Shown here: in pieces, positions 18,403-33,706 of the stretch | Numbering within the stretch: the first letter of the stretch is position 1 | Layout: every line of letters starts with the position of its first letter | The notes under the pieces: model-generated | The model's input: only the letters and a program-made list of their open reading frames with translations | Databases searched by the model: none | Told to the model about the DNA's origin: nothing | NCBI RefSeq assembly: GCF_003991155.1 | Contig: NZ_CP031293.1 | DNA: 64,000 bases | DNA from: Escherichia coli | GTDB taxonomy: Bacteria; Pseudomonadota; Gammaproteobacteria; Enterobacterales; Enterobacteriaceae | Strand: one strand, 5' to 3' | Position numbers and translations under genes: made by a program

Positions 18403-21400
18403 TTAATAATGCTCCTCAATATACCCATACGCCTTCTGGAACAACTCTTTATCTTTCCCTAGTCCAAACTGGGCCAAGGTCAGTAAAAGCGCCTTTTGGA
18501 TTTCGCGCGGGCCACTGTTGGAATTTTGCCAGCCATCAAAGCGGGTAGCTTTCACAATTTTATCAATTTGCTCTACAACATCACCGATTAACTTAGGGGT
18601 AGTTTCCGGACGTGTTTCGAGGAAAAGCTTAGTCAACGCCTGTTTATTATCAGCTTCAGTTACTGGGCGCTCGCCCGTTTCGCGCTCGGCTTGAACGGTA
18701 TCTTTCGCTGCATCCAACAGGCCTTTCAACCAGTCAATGGCCTTGATAACACCAGCTTCATAGTCCTGACGCAGTTTTTCAAGGCGCTCGCCCAATGCCA
18801 CAAATTTAGGATCATGACTGCCGCGCAAACGTCCCATAAGATCAATCTCCAGGCGTTTGGCACGTTGTTCCTGCTCTTTAGCGGTCAGGGTAAAAATAGC
18901 GTGCTCGTCCATAACCAACTCGTCAATATCATCGCGAATACGATTGATATCAGTATGCTCATGGATCATCTTGATTGTTTCGGGGCCAAGGGCAGCCCAA
19001 ACAAGCGCACCTGTCTGCCCTACCGGACGCACCGATTCATAAATTTGCGCCAGCCATTTATAGTCCTGACGATAAGAGGTCAAAAAAGGATCTGGGTTGA
19101 TAGCTGACCATAACTTGGATAACACACCAAAGCTGGCAGCGAATTCATCGCGTTTCTCGTTGGTCGGCAGGCATTCCTGCGCGGCCATAATACCTTCAAA
19201 ACCAGCTATGGACCGATCCACACCAGGGAAGAAGGACAAACATTTATTCAGTTGTAACGGCAATAGCTCTTTAAATGCCTCAATTCCCTCTACAACTCCT
19301 TCAATTTCTTCAGGGTTATAGGCCAGAGCGGTACGCAGATTTTCGAAAACGCCGAGGTAGTCGATAATTAATCCCATGTCCTTGCGTACAGTATCGGTTT
19401 CGTACAACCGGTTGGTTCGGCACATGGCCTGAAGAAGAGTATGATCGCGTAGAGGCTTATCGAGGTACATGCAGTAGCAAATCGGGGCATCAAAACCCGT
19501 AAGCAGCTTGGCGGTTACGATAATAAGCTGTAATGGATGTTCAGGATCTTTAAAGCATTCAATCAGATCCTTTTGCACCTGTTCTTCGGCATCAATGTGC
19601 TGCCAGCGTTCAAAATCGACTTGTTTGACTGGCAGCTCCAACTCATCATGCCATTTAAGCCAATCCTTGTTGAGCTTGTCTTTTTTGCCACCCTCTTCAA
19701 CTTTAACCGGAGCCTGGTCAACGTTCATAACCACTTCAACCGCATCAAAACCAAGCTTTTCACCGAGCAAATAATACATCTGCACACAGGCTTCGCGATC
19801 GTATACCACAACCATGCCTTTCATCTTTTTCGGCATAACATGGTTGGTAAAATGCTCAGCAATATCATTACTCACCGCAGCCATACGCCTAGGGGATTTC
19901 AGCATGATTGCCAGCTTGCCTGCACGCCTGGACAATGCTGCTTTTTCTTCTTCATCCAGGTTGTTTTCGGTAGCCAGTTGCTCGAACTCTTCATTGATGG
20001 CATCACGATCCACTCGGAGTTCAGCCAGCCGAGGTTCGAACTTCACCGGGTTAGTTGCGCCATCCCGGATCGACTGCTTATAGCTATAGCGGCTCATATA
20101 GCGACCTGGATCTTCTTCGGCACCGAACAATTTGAACGTATTACGATCAATGCCAGAAATCGGAGTACCAGTCAGGCCATAGAAGTGGGCATTGGGCAAC
20201 GCCCAGCGCATTTTCTCGCCTAATCCCCCTTCCTGTGTACGGTGAGCTTCGTCAACCAACACAATGATATTGTCCCGGTTGTTCAGGCCATTAGGGTTGC
20301 TATCGTCAATTTCGATATCTTTAAATTTAAAGATGGTGGTGATTAAAATGCCACGGCTGTCTTGTTCTATGTATTCACCCAACTTTTTGCAGCTTTGCAC
20401 TTTAATCAGATTCTTAACGTCGGCTCCGCCAAAGGTCTCGTTAATTTGGCTGTCCAGATCTCGCCGGTCCACAACGATAAGTACCGTCGGGTTTTTTAAC
20501 GCATTATCGGCACGTAGCATTTTGGCGGCGTAAAGCATCAACAAGGATTTACCCGATCCCTGGAAATGCCAAATAAGACCTTTTTTTGGATAGCCTCTGC
20601 GAACACGCTCAACAATTTGTTTTGCAGCTTCAAATTGCGGATAACGCGGCAGGATTTTAACGCGTTTAGGTGGAGTATTTTTGCCCGTTTTGACGGTTGA
20701 AAATAATGCAAAAGATTCAAGTAACTGCAATAAGGTTTGTGGATTTAACAAACTCTCACAGCTGTTGAGTACCGATGCTAATCCCGGCAGAATTTCATCA
20801 CGAAGCTCAGTATTATGCCAGGGCCCCCAGTCTTTAACTCTGGCATTAATGGCACCATAGGCAAAGGTTTTTCCTTCGCTGGCAAAGCACAGCAAGTTAG
20901 GTACAAAGAAAGATTCAACATTTTTCCAGTAGTACTTTTTGCCACCCATGAAATCGGCAGCACCGTCTTGCCAGGTCACGCTGGGGCGTGTTGCGGTTTT
21001 AACTTCGCCCACTACTAGCGGTATGCCGTTCACATAAAGAACAATATCAAAATAGACTTCAGTGGCCGCGATATAGCGAACCTGCTGCGCCACCACAAAG
21101 TGGTTGTTCTCTATATTGTCAAAATCAATCAGATTGATGGTGATATGGTCGCCATTCTTACCAAAAGGCAAGGTTTTGTCGGCCATCAACCATTCCTGGA
21201 AGTTTTCATTGGCCTTTACCAAGCCGGTATGGCGGGCTTCTAAAACCACTCCTCGCAGTTTGTAAATGACCTCATCGGCATAGTCAGGCTGTCTGCCGAT
21301 ATCAGGGTTTAACGAACAAAGCGCGTCTTTTAGCCACTCATCAACGAAGATATCCTGCGCTTGTTTAGGCAGGTTTTCACCGTGGCAGTAAGTCCACTTG

Positions 21401-21465
21401 ACTCCGCTTAAACCTTTTAAACGGTCGATAATTCCATTTTCTGTGACGGTTTGTTCGTTAAACAA
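18403..21465 (-). CDS. hsdR: type I restriction enzyme R subunit (HsdR), 1020 aa
   Basis: N-terminal PD-(D/E)xK-like DIVLYVNGIPLVVGEVK; helicase motif I HFQGSGKS and DEAH box IVLVDEAHRTQ; directly follows hsdS. Confidence 0.9.
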   Translation of the reverse strand: MFNEQTVTENGIIDRLKGLSGVKWTYCHGENLPKQAQDIFVDEWLKDALCSLNPDIGRQPDYADEVIYKLRGVVLEARHTGLVKANENFQEWLMADKTLPFGKNGDHITINLIDFDNIENNHFVVAQQVRYIAATEVYFDIVLYVNGIPLVVGEVKTATRPSVTWQDGAADFMGGKKYYWKNVESFFVPNLLCFASEGKTFAYGAINARVKDWGPWHNTELRDEILPGLASVLNSCESLLNPQTLLQLLESFALFSTVKTGKNTPPKRVKILPRYPQFEAAKQIVERVRRGYPKKGLIWHFQGSGKSLLMLYAAKMLRADNALKNPTVLIVVDRRDLDSQINETFGGADVKNLIKVQSCKKLGEYIEQDSRGILITTIFKFKDIEIDDSNPNGLNNRDNIIVLVDEAHRTQEGGLGEKMRWALPNAHFYGLTGTPISGIDRNTFKLFGAEEDPGRYMSRYSYKQSIRDGATNPVKFEPRLAELRVDRDAINEEFEQLATENNLDEEEKAALSRRAGKLAIMLKSPRRMAAVSNDIAEHFTNHVMPKKMKGMVVVYDREACVQMYYLLGEKLGFDAVEVVMNVDQAPVKVEEGGKKDKLNKDWLKWHDELELPVKQVDFERWQHIDAEEQVQKDLIECFKDPEHPLQLIIVTAKLLTGFDAPICYCMYLDKPLRDHTLLQAMCRTNRLYETDTVRKDMGLIIDYLGVFENLRTALAYNPEEIEGVVEGIEAFKELLPLQLNKCLSFFPGVDRSIAGFEGIMAAQECLPTNEKRDEFAASFGVLSKLWSAINPDPFLTSYRQDYKWLAQIYESVRPVGQTGALVWAALGPETIKMIHEHTDINRIRDDIDELVMDEHAIFTLTAKEQEQRAKRLEIDLMGRLRGSHDPKFVALGERLEKLRQDYEAGVIKAIDWLKGLLDAAKDTVQAERETGERPVTEADNKQALTKLFLETRPETTPKLIGDVVEQIDKIVKATRFDGWQNSNSGPREIQKALLLTLAQFGLGKDKELFQKAYGYIEEHY

Positions 21466-21466
21466 T

Positions 21467-22633
21467 TTATTGTCCCCTCAGAAGAATATTCAAATAACTG
21501 GACTTGAGTTTACGAATTTTTTGAAGCCTTGATTTAGCTTCTCTATAACTGTTTTCGGCTAAATGTAATATATCCTTATATTTCCCAAGCTCTCTTGATG
21601 GTGGTATAACCATCTTCTGAGAATGTACATCGGCATCATTAACAGCCGGGAAACTTGTACCAACTGCCAAATTGGTTAATGAATAAGTGAATTGCTTCGA
21701 CAAAGTGAAATAATAAATAAAATCGGACAAATCATTTTTTGCCCTTAGAACAGTAAAACCTGTTGATGCTATTGAATCATTCAATATTTCAGACACATAA
21801 AACGTAGCTCTATGATTGGGTCTAACAGTGCTAACAACAATATCTTTTTCCTTAAGAATACGCCGAGCTCGGCTGGGGGCTTCAGCGAAATGGTATTCTT
21901 TAGGAGTATCGACAAAACCAGGAAAAGTCACTGAAGATATATCTATATACCTAATCAGCTTATTTTTATTGGCATCATTACTTAACAAGTCAAAATTAAT
22001 ATTTGATACATCCTTCAATCTAACTTTGTTATATCCAAATGGCAGTTTTTCTTTTCGATCAAATGTAGTCAACCGATCAATTAATCTTTGAAATAAATTT
22101 AATGCAGACCTTTCAGTCTCATTTGCACAATGTAATACTTGTTCGATTTTTTTTAAAGAATTTAAAAAATCAACTTGCAGATCCATTTCAGGAATAATAA
22201 ATTCCTGCTGACTTAAAACTTTCCATTTTATCGTTGGAGACAATGACCCCTCCGAAATTGCTACTGCACGATTCATGAAAGTATCAGACTGCATAATAAA
22301 GGGTAAAAACTCAGGTATTACAGTATTTGAATTTGCCTCCAGAACCATGGCATGAGCCGAACAGATACAATCCCAATCTGCTACCGCGACTTTACGTTGA
22401 TAAGCACGACGCTTACCAAAAATAATCTGGCCTTTTTTCACTAAAAGCTTCTGCCCTTCAACGTCACTGGGTGTACCATGACGTTTGATTTTCAGGCTGT
22501 CAGGGTCTAAATGCTCCAAACCGACATAAATTTCAAGGTCTGTCTCGCTCGGTTCCACTCGTTTAGAGATATGTTTAGCGATATCGCCAAACTTCACCAT
22601 TTGCCAGCCTTCAGGTAATTGCTGTTCTGTCAT
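21467..22633 (-). CDS. hsdS: type I restriction-modification specificity subunit (HsdS), two TRDs
   Basis: 388-aa protein with two variable regions separated by conserved spacer; second TRD coding region markedly AT-rich; abuts hsdM and hsdR. Confidence 0.85.
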   Translation of the reverse strand: MTEQQLPEGWQMVKFGDIAKHISKRVEPSETDLEIYVGLEHLDPDSLKIKRHGTPSDVEGQKLLVKKGQIIFGKRRAYQRKVAVADWDCICSAHAMVLEANSNTVIPEFLPFIMQSDTFMNRAVAISEGSLSPTIKWKVLSQQEFIIPEMDLQVDFLNSLKKIEQVLHCANETERSALNLFQRLIDRLTTFDRKEKLPFGYNKVRLKDVSNINFDLLSNDANKNKLIRYIDISSVTFPGFVDTPKEYHFAEAPSRARRILKEKDIVVSTVRPNHRATFYVSEILNDSIASTGFTVLRAKNDLSDFIYYFTLSKQFTYSLTNLAVGTSFPAVNDADVHSQKMVIPPSRELGKYKDILHLAENSYREAKSRLQKIRKLKSSYLNILLRGQ

Positions 22634-24133
22634 TTACTGCTCCACCTTGCTTTCAACGTTATATCCAAGCTCTGCAAGGCTCTGGAATAATTTATTAGTT
22701 TGCTTTTTCAACTGAGTACGGCTTACTTTCCACGCTTCAATCGCATGTTCAATATTATGTACTTCAGCGTTGTTTTGTGCTTGCACATACAGTGGAATTG
22801 AAAGGTTATAAAGGTTTTCTTTAATAGCTTCAATATTCACTAAAGAGGTTATATCGTTTTTTTTCTCCGGATTAAAATAAGCCTCGCATAATACCTCCAA
22901 ATCCTCATCGGATAAGCGACTATGAGCGCGTTCACGGGTAACATGCTCAACCCCGTTGATAAATAACACTTTATTTTTGCGTTCGGCAGGTTTATTGCAA
23001 TTAAGCACCACCACACAAGATTCCATCGGCGAGTTATAAAACAGATTTGGTCCCAAACCAATCACCGCTTCAATAATGTCCGATTCAATCACCTGTTTAC
23101 GAATGGCCTGCTCAGAATCACGGAACAGCACACCGTGTGGCCAGAGCATAGCAGCACGACCGGTATCGGGTTTTAAACTTTTAATTATATGGGTATAAAA
23201 AGCATAATCAGCGCAGCCCTGCGGTGGGACACCATAAAGATTTCGACCATACGGATCAGCAGCAAACTTGTCACGATTCCATTTTTTAATGGAGTACGGT
23301 GGGTTGGCAAAAATCACATCAAACTGCTTGAGCCGATCGTTTTCAATAAACTTTGGCTCAGCCAAAGTATCACCACGCAGCACATCAAACTCTTCAATAT
23401 CGTGCAGGAACATATTCATACGGGCGATTGCGGATGTCAGCAGGTTCACTTCCTGACCATAAAGGTGCACAGAGCGCCACTCTTCCCCTCTAGCACGCAG
23501 ATCCATCACTGCATTTAGCAACATCCCACCTGTGCCACACGTTGGATCATAGGCGGTTTCACCCGGTTTTAAGCCCATAATGCGCGTCATTAAATGCACG
23601 ACTGTTCGGTTGGTGTAGAACTCTGCTGCCGTATGACCGGAATCATCAGCGAACTTTTTAATCAGGTATTCGTAGGCCTCACCAAGATCATCCTGAGCGA
23701 CAGATTTAATGCCTAGCGGAATTTGACTGAAATGTTCAATCAGATCAGCCAGCAGATGATCGGGCAGGCGCTCTTTATTGGTCCACTGCGCATCACCGAA
23801 GACGCCATGTAAACGCGGATTATTGGCTTCAATTAGTCGAAGCGCATTCTGGATCGCTTCACCAATGTTTTTACTGGTATTGCGTACCTTTTCCCAACTG
23901 GCTTCAGAGGGAATGTTGAAACGGTGAAACATCGGCATGGCGGCATATTCAGCATCACCTTCATGGAGTTCCAGCGCTTCGTTATATTCTTCCAGATAGA
24001 CATCTGACAGGCGTTTGTAAAACAGCAACGGGAAGATATACTGCTTGTAGTCTGATGCGTCAATTTGGCCACGAAGAAATTCGGCGGCTCCCCAGAGCAG
24101 CTCTTCCAGCTTTTTATTACTCATAGTACTCAT
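22634..24133 (-). CDS. hsdM: type I N6-adenine methyltransferase subunit, paralogue B (499 aa)
   Basis: Motif I YDPTCGTGGMLL, motif IV FANPPYSIKKW; start overlaps stop of upstream hsdM paralogue (24130-24133). Confidence 0.85.
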   Translation of the reverse strand: MSTMSNKKLEELLWGAAEFLRGQIDASDYKQYIFPLLFYKRLSDVYLEEYNEALELHEGDAEYAAMPMFHRFNIPSEASWEKVRNTSKNIGEAIQNALRLIEANNPRLHGVFGDAQWTNKERLPDHLLADLIEHFSQIPLGIKSVAQDDLGEAYEYLIKKFADDSGHTAAEFYTNRTVVHLMTRIMGLKPGETAYDPTCGTGGMLLNAVMDLRARGEEWRSVHLYGQEVNLLTSAIARMNMFLHDIEEFDVLRGDTLAEPKFIENDRLKQFDVIFANPPYSIKKWNRDKFAADPYGRNLYGVPPQGCADYAFYTHIIKSLKPDTGRAAMLWPHGVLFRDSEQAIRKQVIESDIIEAVIGLGPNLFYNSPMESCVVVLNCNKPAERKNKVLFINGVEHVTRERAHSRLSDEDLEVLCEAYFNPEKKNDITSLVNIEAIKENLYNLSIPLYVQAQNNAEVHNIEHAIEAWKVSRTQLKKQTNKLFQSLAELGYNVESKVEQ

Positions 24134-25629
24134 ACCTCGAAACCTTCTTTGATAAGCAGGGCCTCCAGCTCCTCTTCTGCTTTTTCCAGCTCAGCCAGCT
24201 TCCGTTGAAAATCTTTGAGCGCCTCTTCCACAGTGATGGTTTCTTCTTCGAGTGGCTTTTGCACATAACGAGCAATATTTAGATTGAAGTCATTTTCTTC
24301 AATCTCCTTCAGAGAAACCCAGCGTGCAACGCCTTCGATTTCTTTTGCATCTGGCCCTTGTTGCGCCTGGTCATGATAGATTTGGTATATTTCATCGGCC
24401 TGCTTGTTGGACAGCGTATTCTGCGCACGTCCCTTGGTATAGATTTCTTCAGCATTGATGATCAATACATGATCTTTATGCGCGGCCGGACGTGATTTAC
24501 GCAGCACCAAAATACACGCAGGAATCCCAGTCCCATAGAACAGGTTGGAAGCAACACCAATAATCGCCACAATGCGATTCTCTTGCAGTAATTTGGTTCG
24601 AATTGCCCCCTCTGCGCCGCCACGAAACAGCACACCATGAGGTAATACGACTGCCATACGTCCATTGTCGTTAAGTGAAGCAAACATATGCTGCACCCAG
24701 GCAAAATCACCATTTGTTTTAGGCGCCAGGCCATATTGCTTACGGCCATAGGGATCGTTCGACCACAGATCGTATCCCCATTCTTTTAAGCTAAATGGTG
24801 GGTTGGCAACAACGCAGTCAAAGGTTTCTAAACGATCGCTTTTTAAAAATTTAGGTTCGCGTAAAGTATCCCCTCGGACAATATCGAAATCTTCCTGTCC
24901 ATGCAGGAACAGATTCATACGCGCAATAGCTTCCGTCGTTAAGTTCTTTTCCTGACCCTTGATTTTTAGTAAACGCGGATCACCACCATTTTCTTTTACA
25001 TGGTGGATGGTCTCAAGCAGCATACCACCGGTACCACAGGCGGGATCGTAGACACTCTCACCGGCTTTTGGATCAAGAATGTTAACCATCAAACGAACGA
25101 TAGTTCGTGGGGTATAGAACTCACCGGCTTTCTTATTGGCTTTGTCTGCAAAGCGTTTGATCAGATACTCGTATGCGCGCCCCATATCATCGTCACGGAC
25201 ACTAGAAACGCCAAGGTTCACCTTATTGAAGTGATTGAGTAACGTAGCCAGTAACTCATCAGAAAGGCGTTCTTTATTGGTCCAGCTGGCATCGCCAAAA
25301 ATGCCATGCAGTTTAGGGTTTGCCAGTTCTATACCACGGAAGGACTCTTTTAAAGCCTGACCGATGTCCTTGGTCTCAGCGAAAACATCGCGCCAGTGGC
25401 AATTTTCAGGTATCTGAATACGGTGAAACATCTTGCCCTTGGCAAGCTCTGCATCCCCAATGCTCTCCATCGCATCGGCAAATTCTTCGTCATACACGTC
25501 ACAAATGCGCTTGAAGAACAGGATGGGGAAAATGTACGTTTTGTAATCTGACGCATCAATGGGCCCTGTAATAATATGGGCTGCATGCCATAGATGGGCC
25601 TCGAGATCTTTTAGGTTAATCAGTGTCAT
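24130..25629 (-). CDS. hsdM: type I N6-adenine methyltransferase subunit, paralogue A (500 aa)
   Basis: ORF 24130..25731 trimmed to MTLINLKDLEAHLW; motif I YDPACGTGGMLL, motif IV VANPPFSLKEW; homologous over full length to paralogue B. Confidence 0.85.
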   Translation of the reverse strand: MTLINLKDLEAHLWHAAHIITGPIDASDYKTYIFPILFFKRICDVYDEEFADAMESIGDAELAKGKMFHRIQIPENCHWRDVFAETKDIGQALKESFRGIELANPKLHGIFGDASWTNKERLSDELLATLLNHFNKVNLGVSSVRDDDMGRAYEYLIKRFADKANKKAGEFYTPRTIVRLMVNILDPKAGESVYDPACGTGGMLLETIHHVKENGGDPRLLKIKGQEKNLTTEAIARMNLFLHGQEDFDIVRGDTLREPKFLKSDRLETFDCVVANPPFSLKEWGYDLWSNDPYGRKQYGLAPKTNGDFAWVQHMFASLNDNGRMAVVLPHGVLFRGGAEGAIRTKLLQENRIVAIIGVASNLFYGTGIPACILVLRKSRPAAHKDHVLIINAEEIYTKGRAQNTLSNKQADEIYQIYHDQAQQGPDAKEIEGVARWVSLKEIEENDFNLNIARYVQKPLEEETITVEEALKDFQRKLAELEKAEEELEALLIKEGFEV

Positions 25630-25872
25630 TGTTGTCTCTTTTCGATCCTGCAGTGCTTGAACTCTCAGCAACTCATGGATTTCACAGTAAAAAAGCAAGT
25701 AAAGCGATTCCACAACCACCTGAGCGTTCAATATGTATGACGCCTTTACCCAAGTTGCTTAAATCAAGGAAATTGCCAGAGATAATACTCTGGCATCAGA
25801 ATGATACCAAGTTGAAGGGCTGATTTCCGCATCAATACCTTGTGGTAATAGGGGATTACTCTTTTACCCTTA

Positions 25873-26910
25873 TTGGCGCAAAATGGCGGCATTTCCTCAT
25901 TTCTCCATCGGAGCATCTTACGCGCTATAACCACTCTCGTTTTTTCCTATTCCCATGCAGATGAAGCACTACGCAATGAACTTGAGAAGCATCTCTCCCC
26001 GCTGAAGCGAACCGGGAAGATCACAACATGGCACGATCGCCGCATCGTTCCTGGTCAGGAGTTCGAACGTCAGATCGACCACTATTTTTCGCAAGCAGAT
26101 ATCATCCTGATCCTGATCAGCAGTGACTTTATTGCTTCTGATTACTGCTATCAGGTAGAGATGAAAAACGCACTGGAACGGCATAACCGGGGCGAGGCAG
26201 TGGTCATTCCGGTAATTTTAAGAGACTGTGCATGGCATCAGTTAGAATTCGGCAGCATTATGGCGGCGACTATCGACGGTAAACCCATCACTAAGTTTGC
26301 CACCCACGATGAAGGCTACGTTCAGGTCGTCGAGGCTGTCTCGCGTGCCATTGCCCGGATGGAAGCCAAAAAACCACAGCAAACCATACATATCCCTTCA
26401 CCGGCTCCGGCGAATCCGATCTTTCAGGGAGTAGATTCCGTTTTTACACCGCGTTCAAGCAACCTTACTCTACCCAAGAAATTTACCGATCTGGATAAAG
26501 ATCGTGCCAGACGTGAGGGCTTTGAATATGTTGCCCGCTATTTTGAAAATTCGTTAGATGAACTCAAAAAGCGCCACCCCGGATTAGATATCGATTTTAA
26601 TCGGCTTGATACAGATTCATTCACCTGTGCCGTGTATATCAATGGCAGTAAGGTCGGCCAATGTGGCATCTGGCGAGGCAATCAACATCATGGAATGGGA
26701 GATATCTGTTATAGCCAGGATAATGTTGTTCGAAACAGTATTAACGAAACTCTAAGCCTTGCTGATAACGGCCAGACTCTTGGTTTTCGTGCTCTGATGG
26801 GAGGCTTCAGTCGAGGAACTTCACGAGACGAACTATTGACCAATGAAGGTATGTCGGAACATCTCTGGGAAATGTTCTTCGGGCTAATCAAGCAAAGAAT
26901 GTCCCGATAA
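25873..26910 (+). CDS. TIR-domain protein with uncharacterised ~180-aa C-terminal domain
   Basis: TIR-like N-terminus (VFSYSHADE..., WHDRRIVPGQEF, ADIILILISSDFIASDYCYQVEM with a Glu at the expected catalytic position); only in-frame start is TTG at 25873 and no clear Shine-Dalgarno, so the N-terminus is uncertain. Confidence 0.65.
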   Translation: MAQNGGISSFLHRSILRAITTLVFSYSHADEALRNELEKHLSPLKRTGKITTWHDRRIVPGQEFERQIDHYFSQADIILILISSDFIASDYCYQVEMKNALERHNRGEAVVIPVILRDCAWHQLEFGSIMAATIDGKPITKFATHDEGYVQVVEAVSRAIARMEAKKPQQTIHIPSPAPANPIFQGVDSVFTPRSSNLTLPKKFTDLDKDRARREGFEYVARYFENSLDELKKRHPGLDIDFNRLDTDSFTCAVYINGSKVGQCGIWRGNQHHGMGDICYSQDNVVRNSINETLSLADNGQTLGFRALMGGFSRGTSRDELLTNEGMSEHLWEMFFGLIKQRMSR

Positions 26911-26947: not shown

Positions 26948-27094
26948 GTGCTGTCATTATTGGCAATATCTCAATAGGCGTTGAGAAATGGTGCAATTTA
27001 ATCTTGCCAGAGCGCTGTTACTTGGGGACGAAATTAATGGGCTCCTGCTGTAGTTACAGCAACGCCTGTAAATACAAAAATAGGCGTTGCAAAT

Positions 27095-28150
27095 TCATGC
27101 TGGCAAATACGTTTTCTTAAGCGGCACCAATAGCTTAGTCTCTATATCCACTTGCTCATAGTTTTCAACTAACGCGCGTACCAAATCATCCAGCGTCCAT
27201 AGCGTCAACGGGATTGTAGAACGATCGGCCTCATAACGCGCATCCTTGCTGAATCCGCCGGTACTGACATACAGCCCGCGATCGTCTTTATGGCGGCCAC
27301 CGATAAAGCTACGGATTTGCTGGCTGCTCATCTGTTCCCGCCGGTGCTTCACCTCAACAATAATGCGCGGATTTTCAAACCCAAATCCGTCAGGCGAAGC
27401 AATGATGTCTTTCCCACGGTCAGCACCCGCAGGCGATACCTGAGTTTTATATCCCATGCTGCGTAACACGCCAGCGACCAGATTCTGCATCTCATCCCAG
27501 TCGAGACGGTTGATACGATCCTTGATGCCTTCAAAAGCGATCATTTCCATGTCGCGCAGAGGATTAGAAACGACCTCATCCTCTTCACCTGAAACAGGTA
27601 CTTCCGGCACGATATCTGAGACAGGCTTATTGCCCTGCACTAATTCATTCACAGCAAAATCAGGCACCTGAAAAACTGTCAGCGTTGAACCAAGGGTGTT
27701 TCTAGTTGCATCACTCAGACTATCGCGCTTAATCTCTTCCGCATTCCACTTCACTTTACGGGCGATGCCCATGCCATCTTCAAGCCACTCGGCATGAAAC
27801 TCAAAATCTGACGCTATTTTCCCTATTAAATAGGTCCGATTAGAAGGTGAATAAGTGATAGCCCAGTCGCCTTTCTGCATTTCATTCACAAAGCGCCAGA
27901 CCTGAGAAGCTCCAGAACGAACTGTGCCTGGCTTAGTCTGTGGCTCAAGCTCCTGATACCGGGTAAACAACTGCTCTCTTGAGCATCCAGGTTTCACATA
28001 GGGAGCGAGCTGCGACCAACCAATTGCAACAACCTGTTTGTCTCTGAAGTCGTCGTACAATTTTCCGCCATCACCGCGGATCATCCACATCTTAGTCGCC
28101 ACAATAATTCCTTCTGAAAATACTTCATCGTTATACCGGGACGTGATCAT
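27095..28150 (-). CDS. Mrr-family (PD-(D/E)xK) restriction endonuclease with N-terminal PUA/EVE-like putative modified-base reader; probable type IV enzyme
   Basis: C-terminal domain alignable with E. coli Mrr catalytic region (DIIASPDGFG...IIVEVKHRR...LYVSTGGFS); start set at ATG 28150 preceded by AAGGTGG; N-terminal RFVNEMQKGDWAITYS resembles EVE-domain core. Confidence 0.7.
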   Translation of the reverse strand: MITSRYNDEVFSEGIIVATKMWMIRGDGGKLYDDFRDKQVVAIGWSQLAPYVKPGCSREQLFTRYQELEPQTKPGTVRSGASQVWRFVNEMQKGDWAITYSPSNRTYLIGKIASDFEFHAEWLEDGMGIARKVKWNAEEIKRDSLSDATRNTLGSTLTVFQVPDFAVNELVQGNKPVSDIVPEVPVSGEEDEVVSNPLRDMEMIAFEGIKDRINRLDWDEMQNLVAGVLRSMGYKTQVSPAGADRGKDIIASPDGFGFENPRIIVEVKHRREQMSSQQIRSFIGGRHKDDRGLYVSTGGFSKDARYEADRSTIPLTLWTLDDLVRALVENYEQVDIETKLLVPLKKTYLPA

Positions 28151-28212
28151 TCCATTCAGCCACCTTATCCAGGGGAAAAACACCGATAAGATGGCTAATC
28201 AAAATGTCTGTT

Positions 28213-31200
28213 CTAAACCTGACGCCTATCAAGACTATTATAAATAGCCTCAATCTCACCTTTCAGGTTATCACCAGAGTAAACCATCGATGTATCGTAT
28301 CGTTCATATCGCGCTTCCCGTGTCGCACTAAACCAGTTGAACGATCCCACGCATAGCAAACCATCATCACCAATAACAATTTTGCTATGAACACGGTTTA
28401 CCAGCTTTGTAGCAATACCCAGCGCATTCAGTTTCTCCAGCGCCGCTTTAAGGTTCTGCTGCTTCTCTTTTCGCTTCTCAAAATCTTTATGTTCAGTGTT
28501 GTAGCTTCTGTCAGTGACTATCGTGACGTTAATACCACGTGAACACGCCGCAATCATGGAATCAAGAAAACCCGTTTGCTCCAGCTTTTGCCAGGTCAGC
28601 CATGGAGAAACTATCGTGATGTGTTTATCGGTATTTTCAAACGTCTGATTCAGGAAGTTATCATGCTGCTCCACACCATGAAGTGTGTAGATTTTGGTCT
28701 CGGAAGTTTTTAAATCCTTACGCTCTTTATAATCAAAAGAGAGCGCATTCTTCTCGAACTCAAAGAGATATTTTGCCAGCAATCCTCGCGGAGATGAGGG
28801 AGCCTGGATCTCAAACAGATCCATATCGCCGAAGACCAGGAAGCTATCCTTCGCACGGGAGACTGCAACATTCAGCATGCTGTTATCGCTATCAATAAAC
28901 CCGCCGTCTTCATGTTTTGAATAGACTGGCGAGAATATAACAATCGCTCTTTCCGCTCCCTGAAGAGAGTGCACGGTGCCCACTGTGAGCGACTTTTCAT
29001 TCGCGCCCGTACTGATACCTTGTTTACCCAGCGCCTGTTTTATAGTGGATACCTGCGCGCTAAAAGGCGTCACGATACCGACAACTTCATGAAGCGATTT
29101 GCCGTAATGCGCTTCAATATTTTGCTGGTTCTCTGCCAACCAGGCCGCTATCGTTTCAGCCTCAAGCAAATTATATCTACTTCCACTACTTGCCTGCTCT
29201 CCTTTACCATCAATATGGAGATAACCCATTGCGGGCATTAAATTGCTCTCTTCACGCCCTCTTTTAGGCAACAACTTACCGTGATAGCAGAGCGTATTAC
29301 AGTATCCAATAATATTATCGAAGCACCGGCGGTGTTCATATAGGTACATACCACGAGCCAGTTCGGGATCATATTGATAGCGCGAAGCAAACTGCGCTAT
29401 TTTCATAACGCTGCCAGATGCGGCACTTTTACCAAGGTCTGCGATTGCCGTATATTTCTCGGTAATCTCTTCTTGCGTACTGCCAGACAGAATTTTTTCC
29501 GCCAGCATGTTACCGACATCAATCGCGGGAGCAATACTCCATATTGGCGGGATCTGCTCCGTATCGCCAATCACTAATGCCTTCTTAGCTAATGCAAACG
29601 AGGCAGCAGCCACTTCAGGAAGCACCTGCCCGGCTTCATCGACAATGAGTAAATCGGCAAAATCATACAAATAACTTTTCTCGAATTTACGTTGTCCTTT
29701 GTGCTCACTTATCTGCATATTGCCGGGCAGCATATAGCATGTCATCACCACACATGGAGTGAGTTTCATTCGACGTTGCCAACGGGCGGTTACCCCTTTA
29801 GCGCCTTGTTTCTTCTTCTCTTCCTGCAGATCATCAATTCTGGCCATATCCATCAGCCAACGACCTTCCCAGTAGTGAGTCGTCAGTAAAAATGCAGGGA
29901 AGCGAATCTGCGTATCAGCCAGTTCATCGGCCTGTGAGAAGCTCAGTTCCTCGTCGCCCTCATACCCTAAATCAAATGCCAGCCTCTGCCACTCCTGAAC
30001 CGCCTGCTGTTCTTTAAGAACGATTTCATGGGCGGAGTCAATCTGCTGCCGGTATGTTGTTTGCTCGCGCTCAGCGGAATTGAGCAGCCCATCAATATTA
30101 CGTTCGATAGTTTCAGGATCAGACCACTGATTTCCTGCAATCAGCGCGCCTAATTTATCTTCGAGAAACAGCTGTATTTGGTACTGTCGCTTATTGCGAA
30201 CCGCCGGGAGCCAGGAAAATAATGAATAGATCAGTGATTCACCGGCGCGATATTTTTTCCATTCCGTTTTAGCACTCTTCAGTAGAGTGACTTTTTGTTC
30301 TTGTCCGGAAAGTAATTTATTTAAATTATCGAGATATTGCTCAATATCATTAGCAATAAGCTCACGCGCAGCCCGAATCTGGCTTAACATTTGCCATGTT
30401 GCGTTCAGTCTTATCAGTTGCTCGGATTTTGCTGCCAACTGACCATGCAGGAGTTCAATGATCTTTTCAGGGGATGAACACTCTTTTTCAGGAAAGGCTG
30501 CCTTAGCCTTCTCCAGATAAAACAGCAGTGCATCCTCTACATACTCTTTTGACTCAACCTGGGTGAAGAAATCTTCAGTTTGATATTTTTTGGCTGCCTC
30601 AGCTTTACGAGTGCTTGAGGGAAAATAAGCGCCGAAGCTTTTCAGCTCTGGCAACCATCGTCCGGCCATCGCACCTGAACCTTGCGAAAAGTCTTTCCCG
30701 AATGCCTCAATAATGTTCGTTACAGCCTGGTTATTCGTTGAAGTCGCGATAATAACCGGAGGCTCAGATTTTTCGAGAGCTGCTCTGGCCCACTGCGTGG
30801 CGATGATAGAAAGCACCAGCGTGGTTTTTCCGGTTCCCGGAGGTCCATTAACAGCAAGGATATCGCCATGTCTTGCATCCAGAAAATGGCTTAAGGCATC
30901 GCGCTGAGCCTTTGCCAGCGGAAACTTATCTCCGGAGTGTCCAAGCCTGTCGCTGAATTTTGCTCCTGGGGCCAGCAAAGACTCTGCAGCATGAACCTCT
31001 CGCGAGGCGAAGCGATTGAAGAGCGGCACATCCTTCTTGCAAACAAGCAGGTGATCATAAAGAGAAAGGATATGGAAACTGGCACCGCCAGATTGCGCCG
31101 TTTTAACAATATAACCGTGCTCAGCGAGTACATATTGCTCAGGATTTTTAATCCAGTCGCCGGCAACATTCTTCAGCAGCCTCTCTGAATCATCCAGATA

Positions 31201-31728
31201 TTGACGCCACTCCTGCTGCAAGGCTGCATATCGTGCTTCCCGTTCTTCATCCGTTTCGGCAGTCTTATCAATGCTGTCATCAAAGTTGATAGAGAACGAG
31301 GTATGGATTGTCTTGTATTTGTCATACTGCCCAATATCACCAATCGAAAATGCTCCTTTTGGCAAAGGTTCAAGCAGGTCTCTGGGAATGGAGGTCGCTG
31401 GCGTCGGATATAAAAAACCCTCACGGCTTAGCAAGGCTGGCGTCACTAGCGGGGTAACAATATCAGGTGCGCCTGCGGAACGGTCCTTACCATGCTGCAG
31501 TAACCGAAAATAAACTTTTGGGCGCAAGACGACATCGACCGTTTCGACATCGTCTTTTTCTCCCTCAAAAAATTTACTGACAATCGCTTCGTCAAGACGT
31601 CCCGCCGCTATCCCATGCCAGTGAGTGAAATTTTTGGCGTCTTTCCGTTCAAAACTGCCCTTTCCTGACTCAGCATCTGCAAGCGAGTTGCGCCAGTATG
31701 AGGCAAACCCTAAAGCATTTTCATCCAT
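28213..31728 (-). CDS. SF1 (Upf1/DNA2-like) helicase fused to C-terminal PLD-family nuclease, 1171 aa; architecture resembles type II Mokosh
   Basis: Walker [13 protein letters not shown], Walker [10 protein letters not shown], helicase motifs [16 protein letters not shown] and [12 protein letters not shown]-terminal HKD motif [20 protein letters not shown]. Confidence 0.75.
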
Positions 31729-32053
31729 TACCAGTCCTATGACTCAATGAAATCCATTGATTTATCGAATATAAAATCACCGTATGGATAACTATTGTCC
31801 ACGTTGAAAGGCTGGCTGCAATGTTTTGTTCACGCTTCGATACAAATACTCAGGTTATACGGAGTTCAGAAAACGACCATATCATGTTGCATGGCACATA
31901 AAAGCTTTATAACCGAAGCAGCAAAGGATTACCGGCTGCGCAGCACGCCCCGAAAGCCCGTGAGCCCTGCTGGACAGCGTTCAGTGCAATATTGGAGCCT
32001 GTAAGTTCAGAAAATATCGCTGTCGAAGATGGTTCTGTATGTAGGCGCGCCAG

Positions 32054-32431
32054 CTATCGTTTTGTCCGATGCTTGCGAATAAAAGCATTCAAAATGTCGC
32101 CTTCACCATGCATGACAGAAAAAGAATATTCACATTCTTTCTTTATCAAGATTCCACATAATTCCTGGTGCAAATCAACATTAACTCCCTTTCCTTTCTG
32201 CGCTTTCTTCACACCGAGCTCACATGAACTGATTAATTCAACGTTACAGGGTTTCTTCAAACAATTCACACCATCAATTAAGCCATGGAGAATGCATCTA
32301 TTTGCGGTCGTATCACTGTAGGAGAAAGTCAGATATTTTATTTTTCCTTCGCATTCCAGCACAATTTCCGCCGAACCTTCACGTGTTGCAGCATCACAAC
32401 CTCCTGTTGAATATATTTTTACCATCTTCAT
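32054..32431 (-). CDS. small RNase HI-like protein (125 aa) lacking the catalytic acidic residues
   Basis: Alignable by eye with E. coli RNase HI (VKIYSTGGC vs VEIFTDGSC; TTANR vs TTNNR; NVDLHQEL vs NVDLWQRL) but D10, E48, D70 positions are T, I, S/C; good SD (AAGGGG) before ATG. Confidence 0.6.
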   Translation of the reverse strand: MKMVKIYSTGGCDAATREGSAEIVLECEGKIKYLTFSYSDTTANRCILHGLIDGVNCLKKPCNVELISSCELGVKKAQKGKGVNVDLHQELCGILIKKECEYSFSVMHGEGDILNAFIRKHRTKR

Positions 32432-32499
32432 TTTGTAACTTTCCCCTTACCAAACGAATCGCGACATCCTATATCAAAGGCATTCTCGTCAAAACTTAA

Positions 32500-33279
32500 T
32501 TATCTCAGTAAATTCTTCCGATGCCACTCCAGATAACAATACGATTCAACAGAAAACGCCTTTATTTTCTCCGGCAACAAACATTGCTCTTTAACGCTAA
32601 TATCCAGCGCCTTACTAATTAATAAATGCCCATCGTTCTCAAACGAAATCCATCCCTGATCGAATAGAATATCAATATGCGCAGCCAATATAATTCCATT
32701 AAAAGGATCAAGACGTTCATTTCCATTCTCGCAGGCAGCCCACGGCTTTATATGGCTGGCACGCAGTAAAGGTGCAAAAGTCGTTCCCGTAACAGGGCAT
32801 GCCGGATACAACATGAGACAATTTTTCCGAAAGGTACCTTGCCCCAGCCGTGCCGCAATCAGCTGCTCGCGTACGGTATCTTCAATACTTTTATCCTGCT
32901 GAATAGCAAGACAGTCTCGTTGTGCCTGTTCATCTCCAGCAGAAGATATTAACGAAAGAACGCGCTGCTCAATCGCACTGTCTGAAAGCACACTCATTCG
33001 CTGATACACACGCTGCGCTGAATGAGAAAGCGCAGCAGGAGCGCCCTGCTCGTCAAGCCAGCCGACACGTACATCACTAAGCCAGGAATCAAAACGGTCA
33101 CGACTATTTTTCAGACTATTGTGAAACTCACTGGCAGTTTTGCCCGCTCCAAATCGAGGATAAAACAAGGCAAAAGCCTCTTTCCATTTCTGAACACCCA
33201 GTCCTGCGGGTGGTTGAGATTTTCCGTACTTCGACAAATACCACGCCACTTCAAGCAAATCGTCTTCAGAGCTATTCAA
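32500..33279 (-). CDS. HNH-family endonuclease with uncharacterised N-terminal domain (259 aa)
   Basis: C-terminal HNH-like motif ...ASHIKPWAACENGNERLDPFNGIILAAHIDILFDQGWISF; TTG start (first in-frame ATG is ~100 codons in). Confidence 0.6.
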   Translation of the reverse strand: MNSSEDDLLEVAWYLSKYGKSQPPAGLGVQKWKEAFALFYPRFGAGKTASEFHNSLKNSRDRFDSWLSDVRVGWLDEQGAPAALSHSAQRVYQRMSVLSDSAIEQRVLSLISSAGDEQAQRDCLAIQQDKSIEDTVREQLIAARLGQGTFRKNCLMLYPACPVTGTTFAPLLRASHIKPWAACENGNERLDPFNGIILAAHIDILFDQGWISFENDGHLLISKALDISVKEQCLLPEKIKAFSVESYCYLEWHRKNLLR

Positions 33280-33621
33280 TATTACGTCCTGTTTTTGCAG
33301 AGTAAATTATCACCAGATTATATCTGAAAAGATCGTTTACTAAACTGATCTGCTTACCTGCAAAACGGTACTGCAAACGCTAATACTCAGAACCATTAAG
33401 AGGAACAAGCAGGTGCATTCCGCTGCCATCGGTCAGTTTGTATTGCTTATCCCCTGCCTCTAGGTACAAGCATTTTCGAAACGGAAATACCATCATCTGT
33501 TGGTAGATGTACGTTGAAGTTGGTTCGCCTTGAGAGAGTTAATATAGCGGGAATGATAGGTAAATACTGGATTCCAGGCACAAAAAAAGCCGCCCTTGAG
33601 CGACTCGATTTGCATACGATG

Positions 33622-33706
33622 TGGTGCCGAAGGCCGGACTCGAACCGGCACGTATTTCTACGGTTGATTTTGAATCAACTGCGTCTACCGATTTCGCCAC
33701 TTCGGC
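33622..33706 (-). tRNA. leuX: tRNA-Leu (CAA anticodon), 85 nt
   Basis: Reverse complement folds as cloverleaf: acceptor GCCGAAG.../...CTTCGGCACCA, anticodon loop with CAA, long variable arm; adjacent to ahr as in K-12. Confidence 0.95.

What the first reader, a model, noticed from the sequence alone, without database searches (positions are those of the whole stretch)
32054..33279. Catalytically degenerate RNase HI-like protein paired with an HNH nuclease next to leuX
The 125-aa protein aligns by eye with E. coli RNase HI over its whole length (VKIYSTGGC/VEIFTDGSC, SDTTANR/RTTNNR, NVDLHQEL/NVDLWQRL), but the catalytic carboxylates D10, E48 and D70 are replaced by T, I and S/C. That predicts a hybrid-binding but non-cleaving fold. 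It lies 68 bp downstream of, and on the same strand as, an HNH nuclease with an unknown N-terminal domain. A sensor (inactive RNase H) plus effector (HNH) pair would be a plausible two-gene system.
Basis: partly seen in the sequence, partly recalled or inferred. Interest (0 to 1): 0.75.

Follow-up and report, generated by a model that had tools for sequence, protein, structure and literature searches.

The report
Dead RNase H beside HNH nuclease
A small protein next to the leuX tRNA gene really is an RNase HI look-alike that has lost its catalytic residues, but its pairing with the neighbouring HNH nuclease is a local 1.5-kb cassette in one enterobacterial lineage rather than a conserved two-gene immune system.

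Summary
The 125-aa ORF (32054-32431, minus strand) has an RNase HI fold: AlphaFold pLDDT 92, best PDB match E. coli RNase HI at TM 0.73, family profile against RNase HI E = 4e-18. It carries T9, I47 and S69 in place of D10, E48 and D70. It lies 68 bp downstream of a 259-aa HNH_2 nuclease, next to leuX.

It belongs to an apparently undescribed clade of dead RNase HI paralogues ("iRNH"). There are 215 clusters at 50% identity, and 147 of the 157 examined lack all three carboxylates. The substrate-contact residues (T43, N45, R46, N100 equivalents) are kept. Within this lineage dN/dS is 0.15.

The HNH protein is a relative of VcaM4I and TagI, which are single-chain type IV restriction enzymes. Its orthologues in Salmonella, Kosakonia, Yersinia and Enterobacter have no iRNH. 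iRNH relatives at 57% identity or less never sit by an HNH_2 gene.

They do recur behind or fused to other nucleases (PLD/NucT, T5orf172/GIY-YIG, DUF559), and next to plasmid rep genes.

In the window, HNH plus iRNH form a 1.5-kb cassette that replaced the island integrase. It sits upstream of a self-sufficient Mokosh type II gene.

A functional HNH-iRNH partnership is plausible (about 0.4) but not established.

The parts
33622..33706 (-). tRNA-Leu(CAA), leuX: anchor of the island (E. coli defence hotspot #37)
   Evidence: ARAGORN; Rfam tRNA; hotspot identity from PMC12707154
33351..33456 (-). Remnant of the 5' end of the island integrase gene (DUF4102 / Arm-DNA-bind N-terminus). The body of the integrase is missing here.
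   Evidence: 82% identical to the 5' end of the integrase of strain MS 200-1. Annotated as a partial DUF4102 protein in sister strains.
32500..33279 (-). 259-aa HNH_2 endonuclease: an all-helical N-terminal region of unknown family plus a VcaM4I/TagI-like HNH domain. [quoted passage not shown]
   Evidence: Pfam HNH_2; PADLOC model 'HNH' PDLC04132, E = 9e-21; AF2 pLDDT 82; Foldseek VcaM4I E = 1.4e-12 at 30% identity, TagI third. Relatives swap the N-terminal part for SBD_ScoMcrA, MrcB_N or PF26345. dN/dS 0.14.
32432..32499 (-). 68-bp spacer with an AAGGGG Shine-Dalgarno-like motif 11 nt before the ATG. No terminator predicted. The Klebsiella recombination breakpoint lies here (homology starts at 32472).
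   Evidence: Sequence; scan; breakpoint
32054..32431 (-). iRNH: 125-aa catalytically dead RNase HI-like protein (T9, I47, S69 for D10, E48, D70; no basic protrusion)
   Evidence: dN/dS 0.15 over 12 intact alleles. Newer PGAP name 'ribonuclease H family protein'.
31831..33350 (.). The 1.5-kb HNH+iRNH cassette. It occupies the place that the integrase body and about 350 bp of DNA 5' of MkoC (between MkoC and the integrase) occupy in leuX-int-MkoC strains.
   Evidence: Homology to MkoC-only strains stops at 31830/31871 and resumes at 33351 (annotation)
28213..31728 (-). MkoC, Mokosh type II (SF1 helicase + PLD nuclease). Neighbour, not part of the pair.
   Evidence: PADLOC MkoC 1684 bits, full length. 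Present in 844 E. coli genomes against 142 for iRNH. Monomeric single-gene system (10.1101/2025.07.10.664194).
27095..28183 (-). Mrr_cat/DUF8426 'restriction endonuclease' (PADLOC candidate PDC-S02). Another neighbour module.
   Evidence: Absent from MkoC-only strains.

Best explanation
The small gene encodes a real, selected, non-catalytic derivative of RNase HI (iRNH). It has lost every active-site carboxylate and the basic protrusion, but it keeps the residues RNase HI uses to hold its substrate. It therefore most likely binds nucleic acid, probably RNA:DNA hybrid-like structures, without cutting.

iRNH belongs to a sparse, mobile-element-borne family whose members are repeatedly fused to, or placed just downstream of, small DNA nucleases of different superfamilies.

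In this window iRNH has been captured behind a self-sufficient VcaM4I-like type IV HNH restriction endonuclease. The two arrived as one 1.5-kb cassette that replaced the leuX island integrase. Here iRNH most likely acts as an accessory nucleic-acid-recognition or regulatory subunit for the HNH nuclease.

Shown: the fold, the dead active site, purifying selection, the cassette anatomy and the patchy distribution. Inferred: nucleic-acid binding, and any physical or functional coupling to the HNH protein.

The pair is a lineage-specific combination, not an ancient conserved two-gene system.
For: Fold and dead site.

Family-wide conservation of the T43, N45, R46, C13 and N100 equivalents, while 147 of 157 representative hits lack D10, E48 and D70.

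Purifying selection, dN/dS 0.15.

Cassette boundaries flank exactly the two genes.

HNH and iRNH alleles co-vary (r = 0.78), and a breakpoint lies between iRNH and MkoC in L046/L047.

iRNH is inactivated where HNH is absent or broken:
- Klebsiella: start ATG->GTG plus a G10 stop.
- CFSAN004176: IS600 insertion.
- L011: frameshift, and its SBD-HNH neighbour is cut by an IS.
MkoC stays intact in the first two.

Nuclease coupling elsewhere:
- GIY-YIG fusions.
- DUF559 fusion.
- T5orf172 upstream.
- NucT-like PLD gene 40 bp upstream on five plasmids.
- DUF1173 gene 42 bp upstream.

Fusions to modules that bind hybrids, primers or RNA polymerase (RNase H1 HBD, DnaG zinc ribbon, GreA C-terminal-like).

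Conceptual precedent: a dead repair-enzyme fold used as the sensor of a defence nuclease (PMC12191111).
Against: HNH orthologues in four other genera work without iRNH. The nearest solved relatives are single-chain enzymes.

No iRNH relative at 57% identity or less has an HNH_2 neighbour. Several stand alone or sit beside plasmid rep genes.

iRNH is intact in two cases where HNH is truncated or IS-disrupted (L042; strain 2196).

The pairing inside E. coli may be simple co-inheritance: 140 genomes, one locus.

Neither protein pair nor iRNH is in PADLOC.

No binding, interaction or phenotype data exist.
Confidence: 0.4

Rival explanations
1. iRNH is an autonomous mobile-element gene: a non-cleaving hybrid or R-loop binder that serves plasmid or ICE replication, establishment or counter-defence. 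It is merely parked between two unrelated single-gene defence modules (HNH and MkoC).
For: On seven of eight Pantoea plasmid loci examined, iRNH lies 0.5-1.3 kb from a replication initiator gene, with no adjacent nuclease. Other relatives stand alone. The family is rare and patchy and is found on plasmids and ICE-like contexts with TraX, umuDC and SRAP. Every gene around it in the window is an independent module with its own recombination boundaries.
Against: It decays in Klebsiella, CFSAN004176 and L011 once HNH is gone. It shows repeated short-gap or fused coupling to nucleases. No origin or replication function exists in this chromosomal island.
Confidence: 0.35
2. iRNH is an inhibitor or immunity protein that restrains the upstream nuclease, in a toxin-then-immunity gene order.
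For: It is a small gene 40-68 bp downstream of a nuclease gene in three contexts (HNH here; PLD; DUF1173). One relative sits in an array of small genes that includes a SUKH_5 immunity-type gene.
Against: HNH orthologues exist without it. GIY-YIG::iRNH and DUF559::iRNH single-chain fusions are hard to reconcile with immunity. Conservation falls on RNase H substrate-contact residues.
Confidence: 0.1
3. iRNH is an accessory of the downstream Mokosh type II gene, for example presenting RNA/DNA intermediates to MkoC.
For: MkoC follows iRNH after about 325 bp in every locus at 92% identity or more whose contig reaches that far. [quoted passage not shown]
Against: MkoC is in 844 E. coli genomes and iRNH in 142. 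The MkoC module boundary lies at 31830/31871 and excludes iRNH. Klebsiella keeps MkoC with iRNH as a pseudogene. MkoC purifies as a monomer and defends alone. L011 has iRNH without MkoC.
Confidence: 0.05
4. iRNH is a decaying relic of an rnhA paralogue with no present function.
For: Frameshifted, truncated or nonsense copies are common.
Against: dN/dS is 0.15 across 12 intact alleles with pS about 0.10. The dead-site clade is old and diverse: 215 clusters with strongly conserved motifs. The fold prediction is confident.
Confidence: 0.05

Closest known systems
E. coli RNase HI (rnhA; PF00075, NF001236)
   Same: Same fold and strand order. Alignable motifs: VxIyxxGsC, TTxNR, PCxVxL, KGxNxDL. The C13, T43, N45, R46 and N100 equivalents are conserved.
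   Different: No D10, E48, D70 or D134 carboxylates. About 25 residues (helix C and the basic protrusion) are missing. 41 bits against a 160-bit curated cut-off. Encoded in islands and plasmids, not as a housekeeping gene.
VcaM4I (EVE-HNH) and TagI (SRA-HNH) type IV modification-dependent restriction endonucleases
   Same: The HNH protein's C-terminal 140-200 residues match VcaM4I at 30% identity, E = 1.4e-12. It has the modular 'reader domain + HNH' architecture with swappable N-termini (PMC12707154). It occurs alone in defence islands.
   Different: The N-terminal region is all-helical and matches no known reader domain. A dead RNase H gene follows it in this lineage only.
Short prokaryotic Argonaute systems and END nucleases (inactive enzyme fold as sensor, coupled to an effector nuclease)
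   Same: A catalytically dead nucleic-acid-enzyme fold keeps its binding surface and is fused or adjacent to an effector. Examples are the inactive PIWI, which has an RNase H fold, in short pAgos (own knowledge), and the inactive EndoIII domain in END nucleases (PMC12191111).
   Different: iRNH derives from RNase HI, not from PIWI or EndoIII. It has no MID, PAZ or guide-binding parts. Sensing is not demonstrated, and the partner nuclease is not conserved.
Mokosh type II (MkoC)
   Same: Immediate downstream neighbour, and proposed to act on RNA or RNA/DNA intermediates.
   Different: A single-gene system that is complete without iRNH.
RNase H1 with an N-terminal hybrid-binding domain (HBD, PF01693)
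   Same: One family member (P0054) has an HBD followed by two iRNH copies. This mirrors the HBD + RNase H layout.
   Different: The RNase H-like domains in P0054 lack the catalytic residues. The window protein has no HBD.

Membership tests
RNase HI (type 1 RNase H, NF001236/PF00075) | RNase H alpha/beta fold | tested here: met
   AF2 pLDDT 92. Foldseek top hits are E. coli RNase HI, TM 0.7-0.78.
RNase HI (type 1 RNase H, NF001236/PF00075) | DEDD metal-binding carboxylates (D10, E48, D70, D134) | tested here: not met
   T9, I47 and S69; no conserved acid at the fourth site. The same holds in 147 of 157 relatives.
RNase HI (type 1 RNase H, NF001236/PF00075) | Score above the curated family cut-off | tested here: not met
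   41.3 bits against a cut-off of 160, and only residues 1-69 match.
RNase HI (type 1 RNase H, NF001236/PF00075) | Cleavage of the RNA strand of RNA:DNA hybrids | not testable with these tools
   Needs an enzyme assay. Predicted negative from the missing carboxylates.
Type IV modification-dependent HNH restriction endonuclease (VcaM4I/TagI-like) | HNH (beta-beta-alpha-Me) domain with intact catalytic His, Asn and His | tested here: met
   HNH_2 E = 4e-12. H176, N194 and D203 invariant and H201 nearly invariant. VcaM4I E = 1.4e-12.
Type IV modification-dependent HNH restriction endonuclease (VcaM4I/TagI-like) | N-terminal domain that reads a DNA modification | tested here: inconclusive
   The helical region at residues 1-157 has no Pfam or PDB match. 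Paralogues carry SBD_ScoMcrA or MrcB_N in its place.
Type IV modification-dependent HNH restriction endonuclease (VcaM4I/TagI-like) | Functions as a single gene | tested here: met
   Orthologues in Salmonella, Kosakonia and Yersinia have no conserved partner gene. This is an inference from distribution, not an assay.
   The pair is found only in loci at 90% identity or more, plus one decayed relative at 79%. It is absent around diverged homologues of either gene.
   Same strand, 68 bp apart, no predicted terminator. A single 1.5-kb cassette.
   No experiment found: accession search empty, and iRNH has no PADLOC model.
Mokosh type II | iRNH as a required component alongside MkoC | tested here: not met
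   MkoC occurs without iRNH in about 700 E. coli genomes. Module boundaries exclude iRNH.

The most novel reading that the evidence does not exclude
iRNH defines a new class of pseudo-enzyme: an RNase HI that has become a pure RNA:DNA-hybrid or R-loop reader. Mobile elements and defence islands plug it into interchangeable nucleases (HNH, PLD/NucT, GIY-YIG/T5orf172, PD-(D/E)xK) to direct or license DNA cleavage at replication or transcription intermediates. The HNH-iRNH cassette at leuX would then be a working two-component defence system of this class.
Probability: 0.2. Interest if true: 0.7.

Novelty: new variant of a known kind. Interest (0 to 1): 0.45.

Why it matters
If iRNH is a hybrid or R-loop reader coupled to nucleases, it would add a new sensor type to bacterial immunity and mobile-element biology. 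Existing examples are inactive Argonaute PIWI domains and inactive glycosylase sensors. It would also give a handle on how cells and plasmids mark replication or transcription intermediates.

It bears on two further questions: how type IV HNH enzymes acquire extra specificity, and why a dead RNase H sits beside plasmid rep genes.

If the pairing is only adjacency, the locus is an ordinary row of single-gene modules in the best-known E. coli defence hotspot. The value is then limited to annotating a family now labelled 'hypothetical' or, misleadingly, 'ribonuclease H family protein'.

Tried and rejected
1. MkoC accessory: rejected.
2. Toxin-immunity pair: unlikely, because HNH orthologues lack the gene and nuclease::iRNH fusions exist.
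3. Phage origin: no relative among 2.9 M viral contigs. PHROGs gives only a weak 'Rnase H' match. The three phage-database hits are about 29% identical RNase H genes.
4. The genome-contig scan returned only 3 loci because a single peptide pattern was usable. It was not useful for statistics.
5. Promoter and terminator scan: counts no higher than in shuffles, and no terminator between the genes.
6. Rfam: nothing in 31.6-33.6 kb except leuX.
7. Antisense 109-codon ORF inside iRNH (31992-32321): explained by the amino-acid sequence, since 13% of synonymous permutations keep that frame as open.
8. Literature: no paper cites the RefSeq accessions. A large E. coli modular-operon screen does not mention RNase H or HNH. 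Searches for inactive RNase H in defence or antitoxin contexts found nothing on this family.
9. The HNH N-terminal domain could not be assigned by Pfam or Foldseek.

Full report
**What is there**

The window is an E. coli chromosome segment around leuX (tRNA-Leu CAA, 33622-33706, minus strand). Reading away from leuX on the minus strand there are:
- a short integrase 5' remnant;
- a 259-aa HNH gene (32500-33279);
- 68 bp of spacer;
- a 125-aa ORF (32054-32431);
- 325 bp of spacer;
- a 1171-aa gene that matches the PADLOC MkoC model end to end (1684 bits, Mokosh type II);
- an Mrr_cat/DUF8426 gene (PADLOC candidate PDC-S02);
- a ThsB-like TIR gene, a type I R-M system and further modules.

leuX is 'hotspot #37', the most heavily occupied defence island in E. 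coli (PMC12707154).

The small protein matches RNase HI by sequence:
- NCBIfam E = 1.1e-10, residues 1-69.
- Pfam E = 2e-4.
- Profile of 37 relatives against PDB RNase HI, E = 4e-18.

It also matches by predicted structure. The model has pLDDT 92.3 and pTM 0.85, and the 50 best PDB matches are all RNases HI, led by the E. coli enzyme at TM 0.73.

The profile alignment places T9, I47 and S69 opposite D10, E48 and D70. No conserved acid corresponds to D134. The segment that forms helix C and the basic protrusion in RNase HI is absent.

The score (41 bits) is far below NCBI's 160-bit cut-off for RNase HI. It is a relative, not a member.

**A family of dead RNases HI**

An exhaustive phmmer search of 1.84 billion representatives found 215 clusters with E <= 1e-3. 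Of the 157 proteins I aligned, 10 have the D-E-D triad. These are ordinary RNases H at the weak end of the list. All the others lack it.

In contrast, positions equivalent to C13, T43, N45, R46 and N100 are strongly conserved: T in 126, N in 127 and R/Q in 129 of 157. N84 in the KGxNxDL motif is nearly invariant. From established knowledge of RNase HI-hybrid complexes, these positions contact the substrate backbone and form the phosphate-binding pocket. I take this as indirect evidence that nucleic-acid binding is retained.

Among 146 inactive representatives:
- 95 are single-domain;
- 21 have an extra N-terminal domain;
- 9 have an extra C-terminal domain;
- 1 has extensions at both ends;
- 12 are tandem duplications;
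- 8 are fragments.

Identified fusion partners are GIY-YIG, DUF559, a GreA C-terminal-like domain, the DnaG CHC2 zinc ribbon and the RNase H1 hybrid-binding domain.

The family has no Pfam, PADLOC or PHROG model of its own. It is absent from 2.9 M viral contigs. Each cluster has only a handful of members. Newer PGAP runs call the E. coli protein 'ribonuclease H family protein'.

Within the E. coli lineage, 12 intact alleles give dN/dS of 0.15 at pS of about 0.10. The gene is therefore under purifying selection.

**The HNH protein**

The Pfam HNH_2 domain covers residues 161-214. The putative catalytic H176, N194 and D203 are invariant, and H201 is nearly invariant.

The AlphaFold model (pLDDT 82) has an all-helical N-terminal half. 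Its best PDB match is the EVE-HNH type IV enzyme VcaM4I (E = 1.4e-12, 30% identity), and TagI is third.

Close paralogues keep the C-terminal half and replace the N-terminal part with SBD_ScoMcrA, MrcB_N or PF26345. This is the known modular design of modification-dependent restriction enzymes.

Full-length orthologues at 58-65% identity all lack an iRNH gene:
- In Salmonella, next to a methylase/HATPase cassette on an ICE.
- In Kosakonia, alone.
- In Yersinia, after a DISARM-like cluster.

An Enterobacter SBD-HNH also lacks it.

**Does the pair co-occur?**

Inside the lineage, yes. iRNH is in 142 of 5426 complete E. coli genomes. The full HNH gene is in 144. The whole leuX-HNH-iRNH stretch is in 140, always in the same arrangement. 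Sixteen of 18 close metagenomic loci have both genes intact.

Outside the lineage, no. The module boundaries show a mosaic:
- About 700 E. coli genomes carry MkoC alone, directly after an island integrase at pheV, pheU or leuX. Homology to the window covers 28148 to 31830/31871 only.
- Klebsiella carries Mrr+MkoC+iRNH (window 27063-32472). The breakpoint is 28 bp after the HNH stop codon.
- L011 carries iRNH plus the last 15 bp of an HNH gene, and no MkoC.

Compared with leuX-int-MkoC strains, the window has exactly the 1.5 kb from 31831 to 33350 (HNH+iRNH) in place of the integrase body. In this lineage the two genes therefore look like one inserted cassette.

**Hints of functional coupling**

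iRNH is inactivated where HNH is missing or broken:
- In Klebsiella the iRNH start is GTG and codon 10 is TGA.
- In CFSAN004176 it is split by IS600.
- In L011 it is frameshifted and the upstream SBD-HNH is cut by an IS.

In the first two cases MkoC remains intact.

There are counter-examples. L042 has an intact iRNH beside a 41-residue HNH remnant. Strain 2196 has an intact iRNH beside an IS1-disrupted HNH.

Allele distances of HNH and iRNH correlate at r = 0.78. iRNH against the near end of MkoC gives r = 0.57, and two loci show a breakpoint between iRNH and MkoC. This is suggestive, but the events are few.

**Contexts of distant relatives**

| Context | Neighbour or partner |
|---|---|
| Five Klebsiella/Enterobacteriaceae plasmids | NucT-like PLD gene 40 bp upstream |
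| ICE/plasmid contexts | DUF1173 gene 42 bp upstream |
| One metagenomic contig | T5orf172 gene upstream |
| Single-chain fusions | GIY-YIG, DUF559 |
| Desulfosporosinus | Helicase IV-like gene upstream |
| Seven of eight Pantoea plasmid loci | Replication initiator genes 0.5-1.3 kb away |
| Several others | No informative neighbour |

Two themes emerge: recurrent coupling to small nucleases of at least four superfamilies, and a place in plasmid replication or maintenance regions.

**Most likely mechanism**

iRNH is a non-catalytic nucleic-acid binder derived from RNase HI, probably for RNA:DNA hybrid-like structures. It is carried by mobile elements and often teamed with a nuclease. In this window it probably serves as an accessory recognition or regulatory subunit of a type IV-like HNH enzyme that can also work alone. 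I put this at about 0.4.

The main rival, at about 0.35, is that iRNH acts on its own (replication, establishment or counter-defence of mobile elements) and is merely adjacent.

An immunity role (0.1), a Mokosh accessory role (0.05) and a functionless relic (0.05) are less likely, for the reasons given under the rival explanations.

Millman et al. proposed that Mokosh senses RNA or RNA/DNA intermediates. That makes the iRNH-MkoC adjacency tempting, but MkoC is monomeric and self-sufficient and usually lacks iRNH.

**Comparison with the known, and novelty**

The fold is RNase HI, but membership fails on the catalytic residues and on the family cut-off.

The HNH protein is a new member of the VcaM4I/TagI-type enzymes with an unassigned reader domain.

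The logic 'dead enzyme fold as sensor plus nuclease' has precedents: short pAgo systems (own knowledge) and END nucleases (PMC12191111).

I found no description of this dead RNase HI clade in the libraries or papers searched. I therefore rate it a new variant of a known kind.

The specific claim of a two-gene sensor-effector system is only partly supported.

Noticed in passing
window 28213-31728 (-); E. coli K-12 yjhR: The Mokosh type II gene MkoC is present in 844 of 5426 complete E. coli genomes, mostly as a single gene right after an island integrase at pheV, pheU or leuX. K-12 'helicase YjhR' is a roughly 70% identical relative of its C-terminal third.
   Followed up: partly
window 27095-28183 (-): An Mrr_cat/DUF8426 'restriction endonuclease' (PADLOC candidate PDC-S02, 276 bits) starts 29 bp after MkoC. 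It travels with MkoC into Klebsiella but is absent from MkoC-only strains.
   Followed up: partly
window 25873-26910 (+): A ThsB-like TIR protein (PADLOC ThsB1, 508 bits) has no ThsA gene annotated in the neighbourhood. It may be an orphan Thoeris effector.
   Followed up: no
window 18403-25731 (-) and 14685-18322 (+): A type I R-M system has two tandem M-subunit genes (22634-24133 and 24130-25731). Beside it is a divergent AAA ATPase (AriA/mad3-like) plus a methyltransferase-specificity fusion gene.
   Followed up: no
Pantoea plasmids: L071, L074, L076, L077, L078, L080; L002: iRNH homologues (35-50% identical) lie 0.5-1.3 kb from plasmid replication initiator genes. They are often between a RepB-family and a RepA gene and next to umuDC. 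This holds in seven of eight Pantoea plasmid loci examined.
   Followed up: partly
L072 3478-4369; L073 3433-4372 (Klebsiella/Enterobacteriaceae plasmids): A NucT-like PLD nuclease gene (160-175 aa) is followed after 40 bp by an iRNH gene, then by an SRAP/DUF159 gene. This is a second 'nuclease then iRNH' pair with a different nuclease superfamily.
   Followed up: partly
L005-L010 9932-10309 (Klebsiella): The widespread Klebsiella copy of the small gene is a pseudogene (start GTG, codon 10 TGA). Gene callers report it as a 102-aa 'uncharacterised protein'.
   Followed up: yes
window 31992-32321 (+): A 109-codon antisense ORF lies inside the iRNH gene, and similar antisense ORFs are open in diverged homologues. 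Synonymous-codon permutation shows the protein sequence itself keeps this frame open in 13% of permutations, so it is an artefact.
   Followed up: yes
L028-L030 (Salmonella), L011: HNH_2 relatives sit beside a DNA methylase + HATPase_c_3/HEF_HK + Response_reg_2 cassette. The PADLOC 'HNH' model number (PDLC04132) directly precedes the MADS models, which suggests, but does not show, a MADS-like association.
   Followed up: no
window 44703-44897 (-) and 62293-62408 (-): Rfam hits to Ysr276 antisense sRNA (184 bits) and a magnesium riboswitch (126 bits). Both are unrelated to the finding.
   Followed up: no
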